Shown here piece after piece: positions 2,542 to 42,500 of a DNA stretch of 64,000 nt. How positions within the stretch are numbered: the first letter of the stretch is position 1; every line of letters begins with the position of its first letter. The stretch lies in assembly GCA_000004985.1 (NCBI GenBank), contig GG738895.1. One strand, 5' to 3'. The position numbers and the translations under genes were made by a program. The DNA comes from Naegleria gruberi (lineage: Eukaryota). The notes below the pieces were generated by a model. It saw nothing but the letters and a program-made list of their open reading frames with translations. It ran no database searches and was not told the origin of the DNA.

Positions 2542-4406
2542 TTATTTAATTGATTTGACAACTCTCCTTGATAGTAATGCCAAATCTGTTAATTGAGAAA
2601 AGTCAGCTGATCTTCCAATAATTATCCTCTTAACTTCTCCAAAGTATTTCTTACAGGATTGGCATTTAGAAATTCTTGCCTCCAAATTAATATCAATTTG
2701 AGCATTACTGTTTGCAAGTTGAAGATTATCTTCAATTAATTGAGCAAAACAATTGTGGAGTAAATGAGTTATTTTCAGTGCTGTCGAAATATGTTCTTCA
2801 TAATTTTCCTGAACGAGCTCGATAATTATTGGAAGTAAATATACACACATATCAAGAGATATATTCTTCTTGGCTTCTGGACGAAGTAACTCGTTTAACA
2901 TATCTGAAGCTAATGGAAGATCTTTCATCTTGGCCATAGCTTTAATGGCTTCCTTTGGATCACCTTGATCAATCCACGTTCTTCTCACAATCTTGAGATT
3001 ATTTAATCTATTTGTCATTGCAACAGCCATCTTTTGATGCGACTTCATAATGCCATTAATGATATCCTCGTCACTAATCTCTGTAATTACTTCTCCTTTC
3101 TAATGAAATGTTATTGAAACTCAAATACAAAGATACTTACTGGAAGGAAGTTATCAATATCTAAATTTGCTGGCTCCTTTCTCTTTGCAGAGACAATTGC
3201 AACCTCAGGTGTTTGTCCTCCTAATTGAGGAGTTCTCCTTCCTTCGCCTGATACTTTTGTTACCGTAAATACTTCTCCATTATTTGTTGTAGTTGTAGAT
3301 ATACTAACAGGCTTTCTATTTCTAATTTCATTCAGTACATCCTCAGTTGAACTATTGAGGTTTTCATTGAAACTCTCCTGAGTAATCTGAGGTGAAAGAA
3401 TTACCTTCTTATTATCATCTCCACTACCAGTATACCAAGGCTTTACAGAATCGACTGGAATAACCCAAACACCAACATATCCATTGATATTAGGATTATT
3501 TGCAACAGTAAATACTTGATTCAATCCTTGATGTAAATATACATCTCCAACATCACTCCATCTAGCATCTACATTGTCAATACAACGCATATTCTCACTC
3601 TTCCAACTGTGAACTTTCAGTCCTTCATTGCAAATTGATAAGATAACAGATCCCTCATTTGGACTAAATTGCACAGACTTGATTGCAGAAGGGAAAATAT
3701 CAGAACGAGAAACCATATCAACTCCTCCATCAATATTGAAAACTGAAACAGTTCTATCTAAACTGCCTGTAGCAACCAAGAAATCAGATGGGTGAAAGTC
3801 CATACAAGTCAAAGCATTTCTGTGAGCTTGTGTTTGGTAGAATAATTTTCCAGCAATAACATCATAAACTCTGAGAAAACCATCCTCACAACCTGTTACA
3901 ATCCATTTTCCATCAGGAGTGAATTTTACTACGGTAACAGCCTCCTTTTCTACTTGACCTTTGTATGTTTGAACAGCTTTCCTCTCCTTAACATCCCAAA
4001 CTTTTAAATTTGTATCAAGAGAACCTGTTGCGAAATAATTAGCAAAAGGATGGTAGTCAATACAAGTAACACTTGCACGATGTCCATTTACATAAATTGC
4101 ACTGGAGTGATTTAATTGTTGTCCAGAATTTAAATCCCATGATCTGATTGAACCGGATTCAGCAGCAGCAATAAGTAAATCTTCTGTATTATTAAAAGCG
4201 AGACAAGTAATTGGACTTTTATGACCAATCAGAGACATTAAGGGCTCATCATTGGCAGCATGCCATACTTTTACTATAGCATCTTCACTTCCGGTTGCAA
4301 ATATTTGACCAGATTTTCTACCAATCCTCGAACACAACACTTGTTTTTTGTGTGCTGCAAAGTTTCTCAAATTAATTGCTCGTCCTCTCAAATCATCGAT
4401 TAGCAT
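2542..4406 (-). CDS. KATNB1: Katanin p80 WD40 regulatory subunit, 607 aa, 2 exons
   Basis: Exon 1 (4406..3141) encodes WD40 repeats with the katanin-p80 N-terminal signature (ATGSEDAIVKVWH..IGHKSPITCLAFN..). Exon 2 (3099..2542) encodes the C-terminal con80-type domain. The 41-nt intron at 3100..3140 reads GTAAGTAT...TCATTAG on the minus strand, and the joined frame gives 1824 nt. Confidence 0.85.
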
Positions 4407-4576: not shown

Positions 4577-5776
4577 TTAGAATTGAGAAGTAAGTGATTT
4601 TGGTTTGATATCCAAATCTTCAAAAGTCATAACTGTCTTCTTATAGGATGGTTCACCAAGTCTATCCAAAACTCCTTGAAGTGTCAAATCACCACCATGT
4701 TGTCTCAAAATATTGAATTGGTCACGAGTGACAGTTGGATTTGGTAACATTTGCGTACATCCAAGAATAAAATCAAAGACTGGATATGGAGTTGGTATAG
4801 CTGGTCTACTGAAAGTCTTTGAAATAATTTGACCAAAGGTCATTACTTCTGGACCTGCCAAATACAAATTCTTTCCTTTAGTTTCTTCAACCTTGGAGAA
4901 AATTGTCTTTTCGAGAGCTTCAACAACATCTTCAACAAAAACTGGTTGAAGTTTAGCACCTGAGAATGGTGTTGGTATAACTGGGAAGAATTTCAATGGA
5001 GTTCTTCTGATTCTGTTAATATAAGCACCTGATGAGTAGTTACCCTTTCTATCGAACATAATACTTGGCTTTACATTGGTTGAATTTGGGAAATTACCAT
5101 AGACAATATCCTCAGATCTGAAATTGGTATCAGACCACCATGAAGGTGAATCAAGTTCCGAGTTAAGGAAAGTAACATTAATCATTTGGTCAGCACCATT
5201 TGTGTGTGCACTATGAGAAATATTGCTTGGTCCATCAATATAAATTTCAACAAAAGTGTTATCACTTTCATAAAGGATTCCTGTAAGATTGATAACAACA
5301 TCACTTCCGTAAATAGCTCTATCAACAGAGTCCTTATCAGTGACGTCAGAATAAACAACAGTAATGTTATCTAAATAGTTCCAATTAACATTAAATTATC
5401 ATTATCAAAATTATCAAGGTTGTTTGTGTTAAACATTTTCAAGCCATAAGAGATTTGTTACATACCACCAATTCTCTTAGCTACTGGTTCAAATTCATTA
5501 TTTCCTCTACAAGCAACAATAACTCTATCGCATTGTGGAGCGATACGCTTCACGACTTCTTGTCCAAGGAAACCATTACCACCAAAGATAGTCACTGTTG
5601 GTTTAACATGTCTAACAGAGGTTGTAGCAGTGGAATAAAACTAGTTAATATCCAAAATTAAATAATTTAATATAACAAGAGATTTAAATAATAATATTTA
5701 CTTTTTGTTGGGAGGTAAGTAAATTTTTGGAGAGGAGAGATTTGTTTCCGCTGACGAGTCTCTTAAAGCTTTGCAT
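4577..5776 (-). CDS. NDUFA9: NDUFA9-like NAD(P)-binding complex I subunit (39 kDa family), 347 aa, 3 exons
   Basis: Exons are 5776..5702, 5640..5466 and 5370..4577, with introns using GTAAAT...AACTAG and GTATGTAA...TATTTAG. The total is 1044 nt in frame. The protein has a mitochondrial-type presequence followed by the Rossmann motif TIFGGNGFLGQEVVKR and an NmrA/epimerase-like fold. Confidence 0.8.
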
Positions 5777-6009: not shown

Positions 6010-8016
6010 ATGTTCTCAAGAGCCTCATCTTCCGCTCGCTCGCTCTTCCAAAGATCAAGCTTGTTTTTCAAAGAAAACAATGCTGGTAAGAATTTCGAAA
6101 AAGTGACAAAGAGATTCAAGTCAAGTGGTGAAAGAGAGAAATATTTCAACGAATATGGTACCAGACCAGAATATTTACAAAACAAGAGAAAGACTTCATT
6201 CATGCCTCTCTTCTTCCTTGCCGGATTCGTGCCATTGGTTTTAACGCCTATGGTTATCGATTGGTGGATTAGAAGTGATCGTCAAAATGGTGATGAAAAC
6301 TTGAAGGAATATTTGCAACAAAAGGCTGTGAAGGAAGAAATTAAAAAGGACAAAACCAATCATCATGAGGACGTTACTGTTGCTTCAGCAAAGAAGCCAG
6401 AAGTTAGTAAATACAGTATGTAGAGAAACAACATAAACAAGGTTAGGGATAACCAAGGAACTTATAAATTTTGAAATTTAATTGAATTTTCTATAATAAT
6501 AATAATAATAGAATATGTATTAATTGGTGGTGGAACAGCATCATATGCTGGTAAGTTTAGTTTTAAATTACAATAGATTTATTAACAATTAAAAGCTTTG
6601 AAGGCTATCAGAAAGAACGACCCATCAGCCAACGTTCTTATTGTTACAGTTGAGGAATATGCTCCTTATGAACGTCCACCTCTCTCAAAGGAACTCTGGG
6701 ATTCACCAAAGAGTGAGGAATTAAAGTTTGTTAATTGGCTCGGTCAAGAAACCTCAGTTGAATATGAACCTGTTTCTGCTTATGAGAAGGACGAAAATAT
6801 TACCCTCCTTACCAAGACTAAAGTAGTTCAATTGGATACTCATAACCAAACTATTTTGGCCTCTAACGGAAAGCATTATACTTATGAAAAGTGTCTCATT
6901 GCTACAGGAGGTACTCCAAGGTATGTAATTATTTCCTAAATTTCAATAATTAATTTTCATTAGAGAATTGCCAGGTAGTGACCAATTCCCAGACAAGGTA
7001 ACCACTTTCAGAACCATTTCTGACTATAAGAAGTTGGCTGAAGTAGCCAATAAGGATAATGCTCATGTAAGTTGTTGTTTCATTTTTTTTGTTGAAATTT
7101 TTGGAAACCATGTAGATTCTCATCGGTAAGTTAATTAGTAAGGATTTATTTAAATGATAACAATCATCTAGTCGGTGGTAGTTTCTTGGGTACTGAATTG
7201 AGTTATGCTGTTGCTAACAAGGTTAACAAGAAGAAGGGTTCAAAGGTCACCCAAGTTTATCTTGAACCTGATGTTTTGGCTCGTTGGCTTCCAAGATACC
7301 TCAGTGAACGTGTTAGACAAACACTCATCTCTGCTGGTGTCAATTTGAAGCCAAATACCAATGTTGTCAGTGTTGAACCAAGTAAGGGATCTGATAGAGT
7401 CATTGTTTCTTTGGATAATGGTGAAAAATTGGAAGCTGACTTTGTTGTAACTACTACTGGTATCTATCCAAATACCTATGTTGCCGAAGAAGCTGGTTTG
7501 GAAATTGATCCACAAAACAGTGGTATTGTTACCAACTCTCAATTGGAAGCTGTTCAAAACGTCTTTGTTGCTGGTGATGTATTGAGCTACTATGATGTTG
7601 TTTTGGGTAGAAGAAGATCTGAACACCACGAACATGCTGAAGCAACTGGTAGACATGCTGGTACTAACATGTCTACTAGTGCCAAGAAGCCATTCCACTA
7701 CATTAGTATGTTCTGGAGTGATGTTGGTAATGTCCACTTCCAAGCTGTTGGTGAAGTTAACTCATCTCTCGACACTTATGCTGTTTGGAATGATGTTGTT
7801 ATCAAGCAAAATGGTAGCTCATGGACTACTTCTGCTTCTCCAGTTGTTGCCTCAAACTTTGGTAGTGGTGCTGTTTACTATGTCAGAGACAAGAAGGTTG
7901 TTGGTATCTTGTTGTGGAATCTTCCAGATAAATTGGGTCACGCTCGTAAGGTTATTTTGGAAAAGAAGCAATATACCTCATTGGAAGAATTGAAGGATAA
8001 GATTAAGCTTAATTAA
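6010..8016 (+). CDS. AIFM1: Apoptosis-inducing factor (AIF/AIFM1-like FAD oxidoreductase), 575 aa, 6 exons including a 10-nt microexon
   Basis: Exons are 6010..6415, 6512..6550, 6596..6920, 6964..7066, 7116..7125 and 7172..8016, totalling 1728 nt in frame. The joined protein has a presequence and TM segment, then YVLIGGGTASYA..KAIRKNDPSANVLIV..YERPPLSKELW..KCLIATGGTPR..ILIVGGSFLGTELSYA, all AIF hallmarks. All introns are GT..AG and 43-96 nt. Confidence 0.85.
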
Positions 8017-12710: not shown

Positions 12711-13983
12711 ATGCCATCATCAGATCAATCACTATCTTTATTTCCATCTTCATCTGTTTTACTTTCCAAAGCCTTCTCGATTACAAATTCTATTCGGAAT
12801 GGAATGACGATCCAAGCAGAGGAACCAAAGAGTTTGAATTTGTATGGATTTTTCTCTGCTGCTGTTGGTTTATCAAAAAGTGCCAAGGCTGCTGCCATGC
12901 AAGAAATATTTACAAAACAATCTGTTTATCCTAATATTGCTCATAGTGATCAAGTTTTTGAAAAAAGTGCAGGAGAAGATTCATATTTCCAAACATCACT
13001 TGCTTTTGGTGTAGGTTTTTATTTTGATTTAAACTTGAATTGATTTTTAGGTTGGTGACGGAGTTGGTATGTAATTTTGGATGTCATTTAAATTATATCT
13101 ATTGTATTTAGGTGGTTGGGTTAAATATAATGTTGATCCTTCCTTAATTAGTAGATCTATAACTACAGATTTATTGAAATATTTCCAAGAAAAGGAAAAA
13201 TCAATTATTGATGTTTTGAAAAATAGTAATAATGAAACTACTAATGAATCATCAGGTTGGTCTTCTTGGTGGGGAAAATCAGCTAGTACTTTTGTAATTA
13301 AGGAATCACCAGTTGAAATTCTTAGTAGAGCATATTATGGAATTAAAGCTAGTGGACAAATTAGAGCAGGTAGTACAACATTCTCAATGGTTATGCTTTC
13401 AGATATGGACAAAGGTATTGCTAAATCACTGAATATTGGTGATAGTGGCTTTGTAATTATTAGAAATGGAGGTATCATCTACAGATCTAAGCCTCAGCAA
13501 CATAGATTTAACGCTCCATATCAACTTACCATATGTCCTCCAGAAAGAAATGGAACCTGTATTCAAAATGAACCAAAAGATGGTGACTTGGTTGAACATC
13601 AATTAGCAGATGGTGATATTATTGTAATGGGAACTGATGGATTGTTTGACAATTTATTTGATTGGCAAATTCTTCAAATAATTAATCAAGGACAAGCAGG
13701 TATTGAACCATTTTCTGAAATTTTGAAAAAGGCAGCAACAGGTGATAAGGAAAGTATATTACGTGTAAATCAACAACTTCATAACAGAGCTCGAGAGATT
13801 GCCAAACTTGCCAGAATTGTTTCTATATCAGATAGTAACTTTACCTTTACTCCATTCTCCAAAGCTTACACTGAGGAAACTGGACGACACATTTCTGGAG
13901 GTAAGAAAGATGACATTACAGTCATTGTAGCAGCCTTGTTGAAGAGAAAGATTTTCGTTGATTCATTCAGTAAAAATCAATAA
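12711..13983 (+). CDS. PPTC7: PPTC7-like PP2C-family protein phosphatase, 395 aa, 3 exons including a 16-nt microexon
   Basis: Exons 12711..13010, 13051..13066 and 13112..13983 total 1188 nt. Only splicing through the 16-nt exon reconstitutes the PPTC7 signature GEDSYF...AFGVGDGVGGW. The metal-binding DG motifs (GTDGLFDN) are present. Confidence 0.8.
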
Positions 13984-16091: not shown

Positions 16092-18116
16092 ATGCTTCGA
16101 AACGTAAACTTTGCGCCTGTATTGCGCTCTGCCATCGCATCATCAAGAAGCAATCGTTTAGTAGTCCCTGCAACAAAACTTCAAACAAAATCATACAGCA
16201 AGGATTCTAATGATTCATTCGACCCTAGTCAACATTACGAAGTGGAGGAAGCAATGCCTTTCGTTGCTAAGAATGTAAATTTGAAAAAGACTAGAAGTTT
16301 AGTGGATTTGTTTGTTACTAAACTTGAGAAGGAAGGCGAAAAGGAAAACAAGGAGGAACAATTTTCTGAATTTGAGGCTCTTCAAAAGTCTGACAAAGCA
16401 AAGACTGTTAAAGCCCAATTTTCAAAGAAGAAAGTTAGAGAAGCTAACGATAACATCTATCAAAGAGATAGTGAGGAAGCTAAAAAATTACAACAACTCG
16501 AGAAAATTTACAATCAATCAAAGAGTGAAACCAGCAAGATACATAGACAAGATGTTATTGATATGGAAAGTAAGGAAAGAGACTCACAAACAAAAGCTGG
16601 TGATACTCTTTTGTCTTTCATGTATGAATCAAAGTCTCCACACAGAGTTGTTGAATCATGGGAACTTGAACAACAAGAAAAGGAACAAATTGCTGAGGAT
16701 TTCAAACAACACAAGAGAGATTATAAGAAACTCATCAAGAAGGACGGTTTAACTACCGAACAAGCCAACAGAAGTGAATATAACAAGCAATATGATACTG
16801 TTAGTCTCCAAAATGAAATGTTGGAAGGAATGAAGGCTATCAGCGACTACTCTTTATCTATTGATATGGACAGAATGAGTGCTTCACCAACTTCTCTCAC
16901 CGGTGATAAACTTATTCAAGTTAACAATTCTAGAAACGATCTTAAATCACCATTCTGGAATGTTCTTTCAAACCATGAAAAACGTTACTTCTTAAAGGAT
17001 GAATATCTTGAAGATATTTCAAAGAATGTTGAAAAATACGTTAACATGACTCCTGAAGAAATTGAACAACAAGCTCCATGGCTGTTGAATGATCCAAGAT
17101 GGGAAACAATAGAAGAATTGAGAAAACAAAACATTCAAGATATGTCCGAAACGACTTCTGAAGATAGAAGTAAATATGTCAGAGGTAGAATCTTTGATGA
17201 TGAAGCTCTCCGAAATCTCTATGAATCCCTCGGTTCAAAGCAATTTGATAATGTTCAAGAATTCTATGAAAATATTAAGGAAGCTACTGATGAAGAAGGT
17301 TTGCTGAGGAAATTAGAAACTGTTTTCCCAAATATTTCTAAAGATAAGCTCAAGTCAATCTTGGACAAGGTTGTTAAAACTATTCAACCAAAGTATGAAA
17401 AGTATGCTACACCAGTTCAAAGAACTATTCAACTCATCACAGACGAAATTACTGAAACTGCTAAGCCAACCATTTACACAATGGCTGATTTGGCCTCTAA
17501 ACCAAAGCCAAAGATGCAAACTGTTTTGTGGTCAATAAGACAAATTGCTACTAAGAAAGCTAAGGAAAGAGAAGTTGAATTGGTACATGAAAGAGCAAAG
17601 ACATTGAAACGTGAAGATTATACTTCTCCAATTGATCATATTTATGAAGTTTTGCGACCAATCCACGACGAATCCATGAAGGCTGGTGATGAAAAGAGTG
17701 GTGTTTCTGAATTCCATCCTGCTATCTATGGTGGTTATGTTGTTGCAACTGGTAAGAGAAAGTCTTCTATTGCCAATGTCAAGTTGTCACCAGGTACTGG
17801 TATTTTCTTGATTAACAACAAGTCATATCTTGACTATTTCAATCTTTCTCGTCATCATTACAAGTTGATGCTTCCATTGAAGTTTACTGATACATTAAAT
17901 CAATTTGATGTTGAATGCAGAGTTCACGGAGGTGGTCAAACTGGTCAATGTGACGCCATTTTCTTGGGATTAGCTAAGGCTCTTGCTAAGTTTGTTCCAG
18001 AATACGGTCCAACTTTGGAAGCCACTGGATTCCTTTTCAGAGATCCACGTTCTGTCGAAAGAAAGAAATTCGGTCAACCAAAGGCCAGAAAACAATTTAC
18101 TTTTGTCAAGCGTTAA
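16092..18116 (+). CDS. MRPS9: Mitochondrial ribosomal protein uS9m with long N-terminal extension
   Basis: The C-terminal ~130 aa (GKRKSSIANVKL.PGTG...GGGQTGQ..A...G...AL...RDPR..ERKK.G..KARK..QF.KR) are the universal uS9 domain, and the 674-aa length fits mitochondrial versions. Confidence 0.8.
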   Translation: MLRNVNFAPVLRSAIASSRSNRLVVPATKLQTKSYSKDSNDSFDPSQHYEVEEAMPFVAKNVNLKKTRSLVDLFVTKLEKEGEKENKEEQFSEFEALQKSDKAKTVKAQFSKKKVREANDNIYQRDSEEAKKLQQLEKIYNQSKSETSKIHRQDVIDMESKERDSQTKAGDTLLSFMYESKSPHRVVESWELEQQEKEQIAEDFKQHKRDYKKLIKKDGLTTEQANRSEYNKQYDTVSLQNEMLEGMKAISDYSLSIDMDRMSASPTSLTGDKLIQVNNSRNDLKSPFWNVLSNHEKRYFLKDEYLEDISKNVEKYVNMTPEEIEQQAPWLLNDPRWETIEELRKQNIQDMSETTSEDRSKYVRGRIFDDEALRNLYESLGSKQFDNVQEFYENIKEATDEEGLLRKLETVFPNISKDKLKSILDKVVKTIQPKYEKYATPVQRTIQLITDEITETAKPTIYTMADLASKPKPKMQTVLWSIRQIATKKAKEREVELVHERAKTLKREDYTSPIDHIYEVLRPIHDESMKAGDEKSGVSEFHPAIYGGYVVATGKRKSSIANVKLSPGTGIFLINNKSYLDYFNLSRHHYKLMLPLKFTDTLNQFDVECRVHGGGQTGQCDAIFLGLAKALAKFVPEYGPTLEATGFLFRDPRSVERKKFGQPKARKQFTFVKR

Positions 18117-39524: not shown

Positions 39525-42500
39525 TTATTTCAAAAATTGTAACTCTGATTCATAAGCCTTTGGTTTGAATCGTTTTGGTAGTTCATTGGTTTTGGTATCC
39601 AATAACTTGGCATTTCCATCAAGTAACATGTTATCAAAGTGGAAAACGTTATCTTCCTTTGTCTTCTTGTTTACAATATCTGTGAATCGGTTAAATTCAA
39701 TCAATGGTTTGGCAATAACAGTTTCCAATCTTGGGGCTTCACCTAGAGCATCAATAATTTCAGAGGCAGAAATACCATTTGAGAAATCTTCAGATAAATG
39801 GCTCAAAACAAATCCAACTTGGTGTTTGGTCATTTCAGGACATACCAAAGTTCTCATTTCTTCTTGCAACAAGCCTTTTTGAACAATACATACGTCAGCA
39901 ACTTGTCTGCACATGACGAAAGCTTCTTCAGAGCTAGAGGTAGATTGTCTCAAACTGTGAATAATACCTTTAGAGTTGAACCAGTTCTCAATGAATGGCA
40001 ATCTCATCTTGATTTGAATAGCAGCATTTGTGTTCATCTTGTTTTGCAAGAAGTGGTTAAAGCATACAGCGTCAAGACCAGCAGCCAAATATTCAAAGAA
40101 ATGGTTGGAAATTCTCAAATCCACGTTATTGTTATCAAATTTGGATTTAAGTTCTGATAAACTTGCAAGAACAAATTTGATATCAGCTCCAGATTCTATT
40201 TCATATTGCTTTTCAGCAAAGAGAGCTCTAATCAACTTTTCTCTAACTCTACGAATGTGTTTCATAAGTAAATATGTGTAAGCCTTTCCTAATGTATTAG
40301 CCATTGATGTGAACAAGCTCTCCCAATTGGTAATAATTTCTTCGTTTTCTTCTCCTTCTTCAAGAGGTCTACTGAAAAGTTGTGGCATGTGTGGAGGATC
40401 GAATAGTGTTTCTTCTCCAGAAGCAGTGGTCTCTCTTGGACTTCTTAATGGACTTCTATTTCTTTGCTTCTCAAAAATAACAGCAGCATCACCAGTAGAA
40501 GTAGGTTTAAGTTGTTTGAGTGCCTTTTCAACAAGAGAGGCATTCTCCTTATCGAGTCCATGGAACATGGCAAGTAATCTACAAATTGCATTAATCCAAT
40601 AAATTAATTGATCATCATTGTGGGCATTCTTGTCTACAACATAATCAAGTGCATGAGAAACATTGGTAGCGAAAAGCTTATTTACACTCTTATTCTTTTC
40701 ATCGTTAATCTTCCACTTGTTAAGACATAGGAACAAAATTTTAACAGGAGTTGGAATTCTGCTATTCAAAACTTCAAAGGTTTGCACGTGTAAAATAGCT
40801 GACTCGACAACAAATCTTTGAACATCTAAAAGTTTGGATTGTTGAATGTAGGTGTCCATCTTTTCTTTAAGAACCTTTGCTTCTTCTTCCATCTTGGCCA
40901 TAGCTTCCTTGAGTACTGTTTCATTTTCACTCTTTTCATTAACTCCATTTTGCAAGTTATTAATTTCTTGGTTGCGCTTTTCAATAATCGAATCCAATTC
41001 ATTCATTGTAGTAACTTTTTGTTCCAGTTCTTGAGATTTTTCTGATAACTCTTGCTCCTTGGATTGAATGTTGTTAACAAGATTTTGTAAATCTTTTTCT
41101 CTAGTTTCAAGTTCTGTCTTTAGAGTTTGAATTTGCTCCTCTTGTTCAGTGACAGCTTGTGATTTTTGTACAAGTTCTTCATCAAGTTTGCTGAGTTTTT
41201 GTTCAAGTAATTCTGCTTCGGCTTGCTTTTCTTGAATCTTGTTATGAGCGTCTTGGAGTTGATTATTGAGATCAGATATTTCCTTTCCTTGTTGTTCAGT
41301 ACTTTCCAAAAGAGTACCTCTTTCTTGTTCGAGATCTCTCTTTTCTTTTTCAAGCTTTTCTAACTTTTCATCCATTTCATATTTCAATCTATTGAGAGCA
41401 TCTTCACTATTGACTTGAAGTCCCAAAAGTTCTCTGAGTTCATCTTGCTTGTTCTTCAACTCTTCGTCCTTTGATGAAATGATTCTGTCTTTTTCAGAAA
41501 TAGTTTTTTCGAAATCAGCAAGTTTTTCATGCAAACTCTCAAATTGCTTATTGAGGAATGATTGTTTGGCTTCTTCAGCGCTAGATGATTCTTCATTATT
41601 ATTGACTAAAGTACCGATCTTTGAGATGATATCTGCAATATTCTTGTTGTACTGTTCTTCTTTTTCTTCAATAACTTTGTTAAGACCTTGGGCCTTTTCG
41701 TCTTGCTCCTTTACTTGTTGTTGCAATTTTTCAACCACTAAATTGCTAGCATCCAACTCAGTGGTTACTCTTTCTTGCTTTTCTTTCAGGGTTTCAATTC
41801 TATTTTCCAGAGAAAGAACAATCTCCTTTGATTTAAATAGATCATTGATAGCTTCATCACGTTCTTGGATGGTTGTGGCCAATTGATTAGATTGTTCTGC
41901 GGAGGCATTCTTGAGTTTAGAAATTTCCTCTTCCAGTTGTTCAATACTTGCTTCTCTTTCGCTCAAAGATGCTTCAGCTCTATACTTGTCTTGGGTTACT
42001 TCGTTGAGTTGAGCTTTAGTAGTGTTGAGGTCATTATTGAGAGAATCAATTTGTTCATTCAAAGACTTAATATCCTTTTCTAAGGAGTCCGATTCTTCTT
42101 TTGCGGATACAAGTTTAGTCTCCAGAGATTCTTTTTCTTGAGTAAGACTTGAAATAATCTCTTCCTTGTGAGAGACTGACTTTGACAACAACATATTTTG
42201 GTGTTGATTGTCAGTAACATCATCTTCAAGTTTGGAGATTGATTCTCTGAGTTGAGCAATAATGATACCGAGATCCTTCTTCTCAACTTCAGCATTTTGA
42301 AGAATTTCAATCTTTTCTGATTCTAATTTTTCAAGTTTTTCAAGAGTTGAATCTTTTTCTTTGGTGATATCTTCAGCCAATTTTTTACTGGTGGCCAGTT
42401 GTTCACCAATTTCCTCCTTTGCTCTTCTTGTTTGTTTCAACTGTTCAGCAATTTCATCTTTCTCTTGATTGGCAATTTTGAGTGATTCTTGTGCCTTGTT

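What the first reader, a model, noticed from the sequence alone, without database searches (positions are those of the whole stretch)
7116..7125. 10-nt microexon in the AIF gene
Only inserting the 10-nt exon ATTCTCATCG between two GT..AG introns of 49 and 46 nt keeps the frame. It reconstitutes the conserved AIF NADH-binding motif (..NAH-ILIV-GGSFLGTEL..). Exons this short are rare and need special splice-site definition.
Basis: seen in the sequence. Interest (0 to 1): 0.5.

Follow-up and report, generated by a model that had tools for sequence, protein, structure and literature searches.

The report
Annotated 10-nt microexon, Naegleria AIF
The 10-base exon is real and conserved in four Naegleria species, where it encodes a core strand of the NADH-binding fold of the mitochondrial flavoprotein AIF, but the public Naegleria gruberi gene model has included it since 2010, so it is a tidy curiosity rather than a discovery.

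Summary
Splicing them gives a 575-aa protein identical to RefSeq XP_002672767.1, so the microexon is already in the reference annotation. The protein is a clear AIF orthologue (Pyr_redox_2 plus AIF_C; human AIF E=1e-99, no gap at the junction). The four residues I-L-I-V form beta-strand 291-295 of the NADH-binding beta-alpha-beta unit.

An exon of exactly 10 nt sits at the same place in N. lovaniensis, N. fowleri and a metagenomic Naegleria. Its changes fall mainly at codon third positions, while the flanking introns have diverged to background. Willaertia, two intronless relatives and two intron-rich opisthokonts have no intron at either position, which suggests intron gains in the Naegleria lineage.

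No other path combines consensus splice sites, the right length and conservation.

The likely mechanism is ordinary intron-definition splicing of two very short introns, probably one after the other. I found no transcript reads. Interest is low.

The parts
6010..8016 (+). Complete CDS of the N. gruberi AIF (AIFM1-type) orthologue: 6 exons, 5 introns, 575 aa plus stop codon
   Evidence: The spliced translation is identical to XP_002672767.1/EFC40023.1. Pfam finds Pyr_redox_2 (2.5e-51) and AIF_C (5.8e-20). Human AIF structures match at E=1e-99.
6512..6550 (+). 39-nt exon 2 encoding the FAD-binding motif KYVLIGGGTASYA, between introns 6416-6511 (96 nt) and 6551-6595 (45 nt)
   Evidence: Exon map. 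The same 39-nt exon is present in N. lovaniensis and N. fowleri. In Willaertia it is part of a 105-nt exon.
6964..7066 (+). Exon 4 (103 nt), ending ...AAT GCT CAT (N-A-H)
7067..7115 (+). Intron 4, 49 nt, GTAAGT...TAG, phase 0, between codons 290 and 291. This is position 1 of the Pfam Pyr_redox (PF00070) NADH-domain match.
   Evidence: The PF00070 match starts at residue 291. Homologous introns of 55, 77 and 46 nt occur in three other Naegleria.
7083..7090 (+). T8 run inside intron 4. A T7-8 run followed by G-W-K-G is kept in this intron in all four Naegleria. It is a candidate U-rich splicing signal (inference).
   Evidence: None of the other 12 Naegleria AIF introns examined has a T run of 5 or more. 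The whole window has only 14 (+ strand) and 23 (- strand) T runs of 7 or more.
7116..7125 (+). 10-nt microexon ATTCTCATCG, encoding I291 L292 I293 and the first base of V294
   Evidence: It is conserved as ATTGTGATTG, ATTGTTATTG and ATTGTTGTTG in N. lovaniensis, N. fowleri and Naegleria sp.. It forms predicted beta-strand E291-295.
7126..7171 (+). Intron 5, 46 nt, GTAAGT...TAG, phase 1, inside codon V294
   Evidence: Homologous introns of 69, 75 and 53 nt occur in the other Naegleria.
7172..8016 (+). Last exon (845 nt with stop), starting TC GGT GGT AGT TTC TTG GGT (..V-G-G-S-F-L-G..)
   Evidence: Prokaryote-style gene calling on an identical metagenome contig recovers it as a 277-aa ORF.

Best explanation
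This is a genuine, constitutively included 10-nt coding exon of the Naegleria gruberi AIF (apoptosis-inducing factor, AIFM1-type flavoprotein) gene.

What it encodes. It supplies I-L-I-(V), the hydrophobic beta-1 strand immediately before the GGSFLG dinucleotide-binding loop of the NADH-binding beta-alpha-beta unit. Because 10 is not a multiple of 3, skipping it would shift the frame and stop translation nine codons later. It therefore must be included for a functional protein.

How it is spliced (inferred, not shown). Each flanking intron is a very short U2-type intron with a consensus GTAAGT donor and a TAG acceptor. Each would be recognised across the intron (intron definition) rather than across the exon. 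A 10-nt exon leaves almost no room for complexes on its 3' and 5' splice sites at the same time. The two introns are therefore probably removed one after the other. Once the first is removed, the microexon is fused to a normal-sized exon. A T7-8 run conserved only in the upstream intron may help its recognition.

Origin (inferred). Two introns were gained 10 nt apart in an ancestor of Naegleria after the split from Willaertia, and both have been kept since.
For: Shown directly:
- The coordinates, splice sites and open frame are as described.
- The product is identical to RefSeq XP_002672767.1, and a neighbouring ORF is identical to XP_002672770.1, both N. gruberi NEG-M.
- The protein is AIF: Pyr_redox_2 and AIF_C domains; human and mouse AIF at E about 1e-99 with an ungapped alignment through the junction.
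- All 12 aligned homologues have four residues, mostly hydrophobic, at this place before GG.
- The AlphaFold2 model gives strand 291-295, helix 299-312 and strand 319-323, with pLDDT about 84-87.
- A 10-nt exon sits at the same codon position and phase in N. lovaniensis, N. fowleri and a metagenomic Naegleria. Differences fall at nucleotide positions 4, 6, 7 and 9: two codon third positions and two first positions giving L/V and I/V.
- Flanking intron lengths vary (49/46, 55/69, 77/75, 46/53 nt) and their interiors are at shuffled-baseline identity.
- The conserved-block statistic is 13/19 against a null maximum of 10.
- The N. lovaniensis and N. fowleri protein models include the exon. They were built independently with BRAKER1, which uses RNA-seq intron hints (PMC6125883, PMC6831594). 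A second N. fowleri accession, CAG4712938.1, has the same sequence.

Support for the splicing mechanism:
- C. elegans microexons flanked by introns of about 49-58 nt are independent of PRP-40, consistent with default intron definition (PMC8378409).
- Plant microexons show competition and sequential removal of their flanking introns (PMC8831610).

Support for the origin:
- Neither intron is present in Willaertia magna, in an intronless syntenic heterolobosean metagenome gene, or in intronless Andalucia godoyi.
- Neither is present in the intron-rich Patiria (16 introns) and Apophysomyces (12 introns), nor in Heterostelium (1 intron).
Against: - I obtained no cDNA or RNA-seq read spanning the two junctions. 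Two scans of metagenome and metatranscriptome contigs for the spliced junction found nothing.
- Other in-frame GT..AG paths exist. One of them (donor 4 nt downstream, giving NAH-VI-GGS) is in frame in all four species.
- The order of intron removal, the use of intron definition and any role of the T run are inferences from other organisms.
- The gain-versus-loss polarity rests on a few outgroups, two of which have lost all introns in this gene.
Confidence: 0.9

Rival explanations
1. There is no microexon. A single intron of about 101 nt runs from the second GT of the donor (GTAA|GT, window 7071) to the acceptor at 7171. The product would be two residues shorter (..NAH-VI-GGSFLG..).
For: This path is open and in frame in all four Naegleria sequences. 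The region just upstream of the strand is length-variable among homologues.
Against: - Its in-frame status follows arithmetically from the 10-nt exon (10 - 4 = 6).
- The donors it needs (GTTGTT, GTACTA, GTATAT, GTGCAT) are non-consensus and not conserved, whereas all 20 mapped introns of the four annotated heterolobosean AIF genes (N. gruberi, N. lovaniensis, N. fowleri, Willaertia) start GTA[ATG]GT.
- It leaves the conserved internal AG + 10 nt + GTADGT block unexplained.
- Three independent annotations include the exon.
- It would put A-H-V-I in a strand that is I/V-rich in all homologues.
Confidence: 0.03
2. The microexon is real but regulated. Skipping it (or retaining a flanking intron) yields a frame-shifted transcript with a stop nine codons later, used to tune AIF levels through nonsense-mediated decay.
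For: - Joining 7066 to 7172 reads CAT TCG GTG GTA GTT TCT TGG GTA CTG AAT TGA, a premature stop (sequence).
- Exon skipping and intron retention were detected in N. gruberi transcriptomes in general (PMC6142364).
- The conserved T run could be a regulatory site.
Against: There is no evidence of any alternative isoform for this gene. Both donors are consensus GTAAGT, which favours constitutive use. No significant RNA structure was found across the region (z = +0.58). A non-3n exon in the catalytic core is the pattern of constitutive microexons, for example the human MPC1 4-nt exon (PMC9929638 abstract).
Confidence: 0.08
3. The locus is a decaying pseudogene or an annotation artefact, and the apparent microexon is a coincidence used to rescue a broken frame.
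For: The N. gruberi model is a computational prediction. I saw no transcript.
Against: - The 575-codon frame is intact, with strong purifying-selection signatures: exons are 67-97% identical while introns are at background.
- The exon structure and the WD40-NmrA-AIF gene order are conserved in N. lovaniensis, N. fowleri and a metagenomic Naegleria, and the gene order also in Willaertia.
- The AlphaFold2 model is confident through the junction.
- Chance conservation is excluded by the shuffle test.
Confidence: 0.01

Closest known systems
Constitutive coding microexons of 15 nt or less in plants (for example the 9-nt AP2-domain exon encoding VYLG and the 9-nt invertase exon; Yu et al. 2022, PMC8831610)
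   Same: A tiny internal exon that encodes the core of a conserved protein domain. It is conserved over long evolutionary distances together with its flanking intron positions, and it is easy for annotation pipelines to miss. The flanking introns are proposed to be removed sequentially because the exon is too small for two complexes at once.
   Different: A different kingdom (Discoba) and a different protein (AIF). The exon is 10 nt, not 3n. The flanking introns are only 46-49 nt. Here the exon is correctly annotated in all three reference genomes.
C. elegans microexons flanked by unusually short introns (about 49-58 nt), which are PRP-40-independent (Choudhary et al. 2021, PMC8378409)
   Same: The same architecture: a microexon between introns of about 50 nt. 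That work argues such exons are handled by default intron definition without a dedicated microexon factor. This is the mechanism I propose here.
   Different: Those are mostly neuronal, alternatively spliced exons in an animal. No splicing experiment exists for Naegleria, and I did not look for a PRP40 homologue.
Animal neuronal alternative microexons (SRRM3/SRRM4-dependent, 3-27 nt)
   Same: Size class. High sequence conservation of the exon relative to the introns.
   Different: Those are mostly multiples of 3, alternatively included, lie on protein surfaces and are flanked by long introns with specific upstream enhancer motifs. This exon is 10 nt, so skipping breaks the frame. It lies in a buried beta-strand, has tiny introns, and occurs in a unicellular organism.
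Human MPC1 4-nt constitutive microexon (PMC9929638)
   Same: A microexon whose length is not a multiple of 3 and which must therefore be constitutively included to keep the reading frame (abstract).
   Different: The human exon depends on strong exon-definition regions in long vertebrate introns. The Naegleria exon sits between 46-49-nt introns.
AIFM1 (apoptosis-inducing factor 1, mitochondrial) of animals, fungi and amoebozoans
   Same: The same domain architecture and about 36-44% identity. The NADH-binding strand-loop xIxI(I/V)GG(G/S)FLG(S/T)E is conserved.
   Different: None of the non-Naegleria AIF genes examined has an intron at either microexon boundary. The middle glycine of GxGxxG is serine in the heterolobosean and Andalucia proteins.

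Membership tests
AIF / AIFM1-type mitochondrial flavoprotein | FAD/NAD(P)-binding Pyr_redox_2 fold with an embedded NADH-binding Pyr_redox domain | tested here: met
   PF07992 E=2.5e-51 (residues 135-454); PF00070 E=9.3e-10 (residues 291-368)
AIF / AIFM1-type mitochondrial flavoprotein | AIF-specific C-terminal domain (AIF_C) | tested here: met
   PF14721 E=5.8e-20, above the gathering score (72.5 against 25.9 bits)
AIF / AIFM1-type mitochondrial flavoprotein | Closest characterised relatives are AIFM1, clearly separated from other family members (MDAR, ferredoxin reductases, AIFM2/FSP1) | tested here: met
   Human and mouse AIF at E about 1e-99, against 1e-29 for MDAR and 1e-10 for AIFM2. The named database hits are AIF.
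AIF / AIFM1-type mitochondrial flavoprotein | N-terminal mitochondrial presequence and inner-membrane anchor | tested here: inconclusive
   The N-terminus MFSRASSSARSLFQRSS and the hydrophobic segment FMPLFFLAGFVPLVLTPMVI (predicted helix 74-93, low pLDDT) look right. I ran no targeting predictor.
Coding microexon (internal exon of 30 nt or less; 'small microexon' of 15 nt or less) | Internal exon of 15 nt or less, bounded by an acceptor AG and a donor GT | tested here: met
   10 nt, with TAG| before and |GTAAGT after
Coding microexon (internal exon of 30 nt or less; 'small microexon' of 15 nt or less) | Inclusion is required to keep the frame and the homology of the protein | tested here: met
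   Skipping gives a stop nine codons later (sequence). Inclusion gives ungapped alignments to AIF homologues.
Coding microexon (internal exon of 30 nt or less; 'small microexon' of 15 nt or less) | Exon conserved across species while the flanking introns diverge | tested here: met
   Four Naegleria sequences
Coding microexon (internal exon of 30 nt or less; 'small microexon' of 15 nt or less) | Seen in mature transcripts | not testable with these tools
   No reads are available. Junction scans of metagenome contigs found nothing. The only indirect support is that the BRAKER1 annotations of N. lovaniensis and N. fowleri, which use RNA-seq hints, include the exon.
Short U2-type GT-AG introns spliced by intron definition | Canonical GT..AG ends with the lineage's donor consensus, and length in the short-intron class | tested here: met
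   Both introns are GTAAGT..TAG, 49 and 46 nt. All 20 mapped introns of the four annotated heterolobosean AIF genes (N. gruberi, N. lovaniensis, N. fowleri, Willaertia) start GTA[ATG]GT and are 43-131 nt. The median N. lovaniensis intron is 80 bp (PMC6125883).
Short U2-type GT-AG introns spliced by intron definition | Splice-site pairing occurs across the intron; sequential removal around the microexon | not testable with these tools
   Inferred from C. elegans and plant work
Regulated neuronal-type alternative microexon (SRRM4 class) | Frame-preserving length (3n) and alternative inclusion | tested here: not met
   The length is 10 nt, so skipping shifts the frame. No alternative isoform is known.

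The most novel reading that the evidence does not exclude
The T7-8 run followed by G-W-K-G is the only sequence conserved inside the upstream intron in all four Naegleria, and it is absent from the other 12 Naegleria AIF introns examined. It could be a dedicated intronic enhancer that enforces, or conditionally permits, inclusion of the 10-nt exon. Microexon skipping or intron detention would then act as a switch that sets AIF levels through frame-shifted, decay-targeted transcripts. That would be a regulated microexon in a unicellular discoban.
Probability: 0.08. Interest if true: 0.45.

Novelty: already known. Interest (0 to 1): 0.17.

Why it matters
The biological significance is small. It shows that very small constitutive coding exons occur in Discoba as they do in plants and animals. 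They can sit in the catalytic core of an essential flavoprotein and persist across a deeply diverged genus. It also gives a clean example of two lineage-specific introns gained 10 nt apart.

In practice the locus is a useful test case for gene finders and for microexon-aware read mapping in protists. A second exon of 16 nt in the same 64 kb suggests such exons may not be rare in Naegleria. I found no paper discussing microexons in Naegleria. A 2024 paper states that functional microexons had not been described before in filamentous fungi, so a genome-wide survey in microbial eukaryotes would be new even though this instance is not.

Tried and rejected
I therefore established identity by exact cluster look-up instead.
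- Two degenerate scans of JGI metagenome and metatranscriptome contigs for the spliced junction gave 0 hits, so I have no cDNA-level evidence.
- My first spliced-alignment script produced spurious zero-length exons. I replaced it with a breadth-first version.
- I considered the truncated N. fowleri model XP_044565283.1 (304 aa ending NAHVSISALSLIF) as evidence that annotators fail at the microexon. It is a contig-end artefact on a 41.8-kb duplicate contig that stops 2 nt before the downstream acceptor and has T6 instead of T7.
- RNA folding of 7047-7191 shows no structure beyond shuffles (z = +0.58).
- The minus strand has only short mirror ORFs here.
- A literature search for Naegleria plus microexon gave no relevant paper.
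- A window-wide scan for paired consensus donors gave candidates at 39893 and 49157 on the minus strand. Neither is a microexon: one is continuous coding sequence and the other an exon of about 76 nt.
- A single long intron with alternative donors is rejected as a rival.

Full report
**Identity of the window.** The window has about 33% G+C. An intron-free ORF at 16092-18116 is identical to N. gruberi NEG-M XP_002672770.1. The spliced product of the gene studied here is identical to XP_002672767.1/EFC40023.1, 'programmed cell death 8 isoform 1-like protein', from a 333,733-bp scaffold. The published N. gruberi genome is 33% G+C, with 1.7 exons per gene and a mean intron of 203 bp (PMC8296547). 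The window is therefore Naegleria gruberi nuclear DNA. This gene, with six exons, is unusually intron-rich for the organism.

**The observation.** Positions 7116-7125 read ATTCTCATCG. The stretch 7067-7115 is a 49-nt GTAAGT...TAG intron and 7126-7171 is a 46-nt GTAAGT...TAG intron. Three further introns lie upstream (96, 45 and 43 nt). With all five removed, the CDS 6010-8016 is a single 575-codon frame reading ...KDNAH|ILI|VGGSFLGTEL....

**What the gene is.** Pfam finds Pyr_redox_2 (2.5e-51), AIF_C (5.8e-20) and the NADH-binding Pyr_redox domain starting exactly at residue 291, the first codon of the microexon. Human and mouse AIF structures match at E about 1e-99, against 1e-29 for the next family. 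The alignment runs ungapped through the junction: nahilivggsflgtel against ksitiiggGflgsel. In an alignment with 12 homologues from heteroloboseans to mammals, every sequence has four residues, mostly hydrophobic, at this place before the invariant GG. An AlphaFold2 model built on that alignment gives strand 291-295, helix 299-312 and strand 319-323, with pLDDT of about 84-87. The microexon therefore encodes essentially the whole first strand of the NADH-binding beta-alpha-beta unit.

**Is the microexon the only solution?** No. I enumerated every GT..AG combination with at most two introns. Depending on the anchors used, 21 or 12 paths in N. gruberi stay open and in frame. One of them starts at the second GT of the donor (GTAA|GT) and ends at the last acceptor, giving NAH-VI-GGS. 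That path is in frame in all four Naegleria sequences, but only because 10 - 4 = 6. Three things single out the microexon path.
- It uses consensus GTA[ATG]GT donors at both introns. All 20 mapped introns of the four annotated heterolobosean AIF genes (N. gruberi, N. lovaniensis, N. fowleri, Willaertia) have this donor, while the rival donors are GTTGTT, GTACTA, GTATAT and GTGCAT.
- It gives a product of the same length and hydrophobic pattern as all homologues.
- It is conserved across species, as described next.

**Comparative evidence.** I retrieved the orthologous loci of four relatives.

| Species | Locus | Microexon | Flanking introns (nt) |
|---|---|---|---|
| N. gruberi | window | ATTCTCATCG | 49 / 46 |
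| N. lovaniensis | L001 | ATTGTGATTG | 55 / 69 |
| N. fowleri | L003 | ATTGTTATTG | 77 / 75 |
| Naegleria sp. (ENA metagenome) | L005 | ATTGTTGTTG | 46 / 53 |

- A further metagenome contig, L004, is identical to N. gruberi here.
- All four species carry a 10-nt exon at the same codon and phase.
- The differences lie at nucleotides 4, 6, 7 and 9. Two are third-codon positions and two are first positions giving L/V and I/V.
- Flanking exons are 67-97% identical, whereas intron interiors are indistinguishable from shuffled sequence.
- Treating the whole donor-to-acceptor stretch as one intron, the best-conserved 19-nt block is exactly AG + microexon + GTADGT. It has 13 invariant columns, against a null mean of 7.8 and a maximum of 10 in 1000 shuffles.
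- The reference proteins of N. lovaniensis (XP_044547881.1) and N. fowleri (XP_044565891.1, also CAG4712938.1) contain HIVIVGGSFLG.
- Those annotations were made independently with BRAKER1, which uses spliced RNA-seq reads as intron hints. This is indirect transcript support only.

**Origin.** Willaertia magna, the sister genus, shares only the first intron of the gene and has a continuous exon across this site: CAC GTT GTC ATT GTT GGA. A syntenic heterolobosean gene on a JGI metagenome contig and the Andalucia godoyi gene are intronless. The intron-rich Patiria (16 introns) and Apophysomyces (12 introns), which share several ancient positions with each other, have no intron at either boundary; Heterostelium (1 intron) has none there either.

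The simplest reading is two intron gains 10 nt apart on the Naegleria stem. The region is otherwise dynamic.
- N. lovaniensis, N. fowleri and L005 have a further intron 36 nt downstream that N. gruberi lacks.
- N. gruberi and L005 have an intron at codon 256 that the other two lack.
- The two microexon-flanking introns are kept in all four.

**Mechanism (inferred).** Both introns have the consensus donor, a TAG acceptor and lengths at the short end of the lineage's distribution. Recognition across the intron is therefore expected. In C. elegans, microexons normally need PRP-40 unless they are flanked by very short introns of about 49-58 nt. The authors read this as default intron definition (PMC8378409). 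In plants, the smallest microexons are thought to be too short for both flanking introns to be engaged at once, giving ordered splicing with one intron detained (PMC8831610).

Applied here, one intron is removed first, which fuses the 10 nt to a 103-nt or 845-nt exon. The second intron is then removed as an ordinary intron. No RNA secondary structure stands out (z = +0.58). One possible special signal is a T7-8 run followed by G-W-K-G. It is the only interior element shared by the upstream intron in all four species, and it is absent from the other 12 Naegleria AIF introns examined. Its function is untested.

**Comparison with what is known.** The feature works like the constitutive, domain-core microexons of plants and like the short-intron-flanked microexons of nematodes. 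It is not of the regulated neuronal class, because its length is not a multiple of three and it encodes a buried strand. It is already part of the public gene models of three Naegleria species, so it is not new as an annotation. I found no paper that discusses microexons in Naegleria.

**Verdict.** Novelty is 'already known' and interest is low. The main gap is direct transcript evidence, which existing N. gruberi RNA-seq data (PRJEB23822) would settle in minutes.

Noticed in passing
window 13011-13111 (+); exon 13051-13066: A second tiny exon lies in the same window: the 16-nt GTTGGTGACGGAGTTG, between a 40-nt (GTAGGT..TAG) and a 45-nt (GTATGT..TAG) intron. Splicing gives ..SLAFG|VGDGV|GGWVKYNVDPSLISR.., the conserved metal-binding motif of a PTC7-like PP2C phosphatase. 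PDB 6ae9 aligns favadgvsgwaekdvnpalfsr to it, and the N. lovaniensis and Willaertia orthologues carry GVGDGVGGW. My two exact models are not in the protein collection, so I could not tell whether the N. gruberi reference model includes this exon.
   Followed up: partly
window 7083-7090; L001 intron 4115-4169; L003 intron 2629-2705; L005 intron 3754-3799: A T7-8 run followed by G-W-K-G is conserved in the intron upstream of the microexon in all four Naegleria, although the rest of the intron is unalignable. No T run of 5 or more occurs in the other 12 Naegleria AIF introns examined. It is a possible intronic splicing signal.
   Followed up: partly
window 6512-6550: The FAD-binding GxGxxG motif (KYVLIGGGTASYA) also sits on its own small exon of 39 nt between introns of 96 and 45 nt. 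The exon is 39 nt in N. lovaniensis and N. fowleri too. Willaertia shares only the upstream intron. Both dinucleotide-binding motifs of this protein are therefore on very small exons.
   Followed up: partly
L001 4285-4356, L003 2827-2897, L005 after 3898; window 6921-6963: Intron presence and absence vary within the genus. N. lovaniensis, N. fowleri and the metagenomic Naegleria have an extra intron at codon 308 (phase 1), which makes a 36-nt exon directly after the microexon; N. gruberi lacks it. The intron at codon 256 (phase 2) is present in N. gruberi and L005 but absent in N. lovaniensis and N. fowleri.
   Followed up: partly
L011 (N. fowleri VFQX01000018.1, contig end): The N. fowleri RefSeq protein XP_044565283.1 (304 aa, ending NAHVSISALSLIF) is a truncated duplicate of AIF. 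Its 41.8-kb contig ends 2 nt before the acceptor of the intron downstream of the microexon and has T6 instead of T7 in the upstream intron, so the model reads into the intron. It is probably an uncollapsed haplotig or assembly duplicate.
   Followed up: yes
L004 (ENA ERZ929261 contig k127_473980), L005 (ENA ERZ27315067 k141_2004166): Environmental metagenomes contain Naegleria contigs on which prokaryote-style gene calling splits AIF into exon-sized ORFs (137, 113 and 277 aa). L004 is identical to the window around the microexon but encodes one extra lysine (NKKKKGSK against NKKKGSK), so it is a different N. gruberi-like strain.
   Followed up: partly
L001, L002, L003, L005, L006 flanks: The gene order WD40-repeat protein, then NmrA-like protein (both on the minus strand), then AIF is conserved in N. 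lovaniensis, Willaertia and the metagenomic Naegleria contig L005; NmrA-AIF adjacency is also seen in N. fowleri L003. A more distant heterolobosean-like metagenome contig (L006) has an NAD_binding_10 gene next to AIF, and its AIF gene is completely intronless. I did not check the corresponding ORFs in the window (3111-4406 and 4577-5185, minus strand).
   Followed up: no
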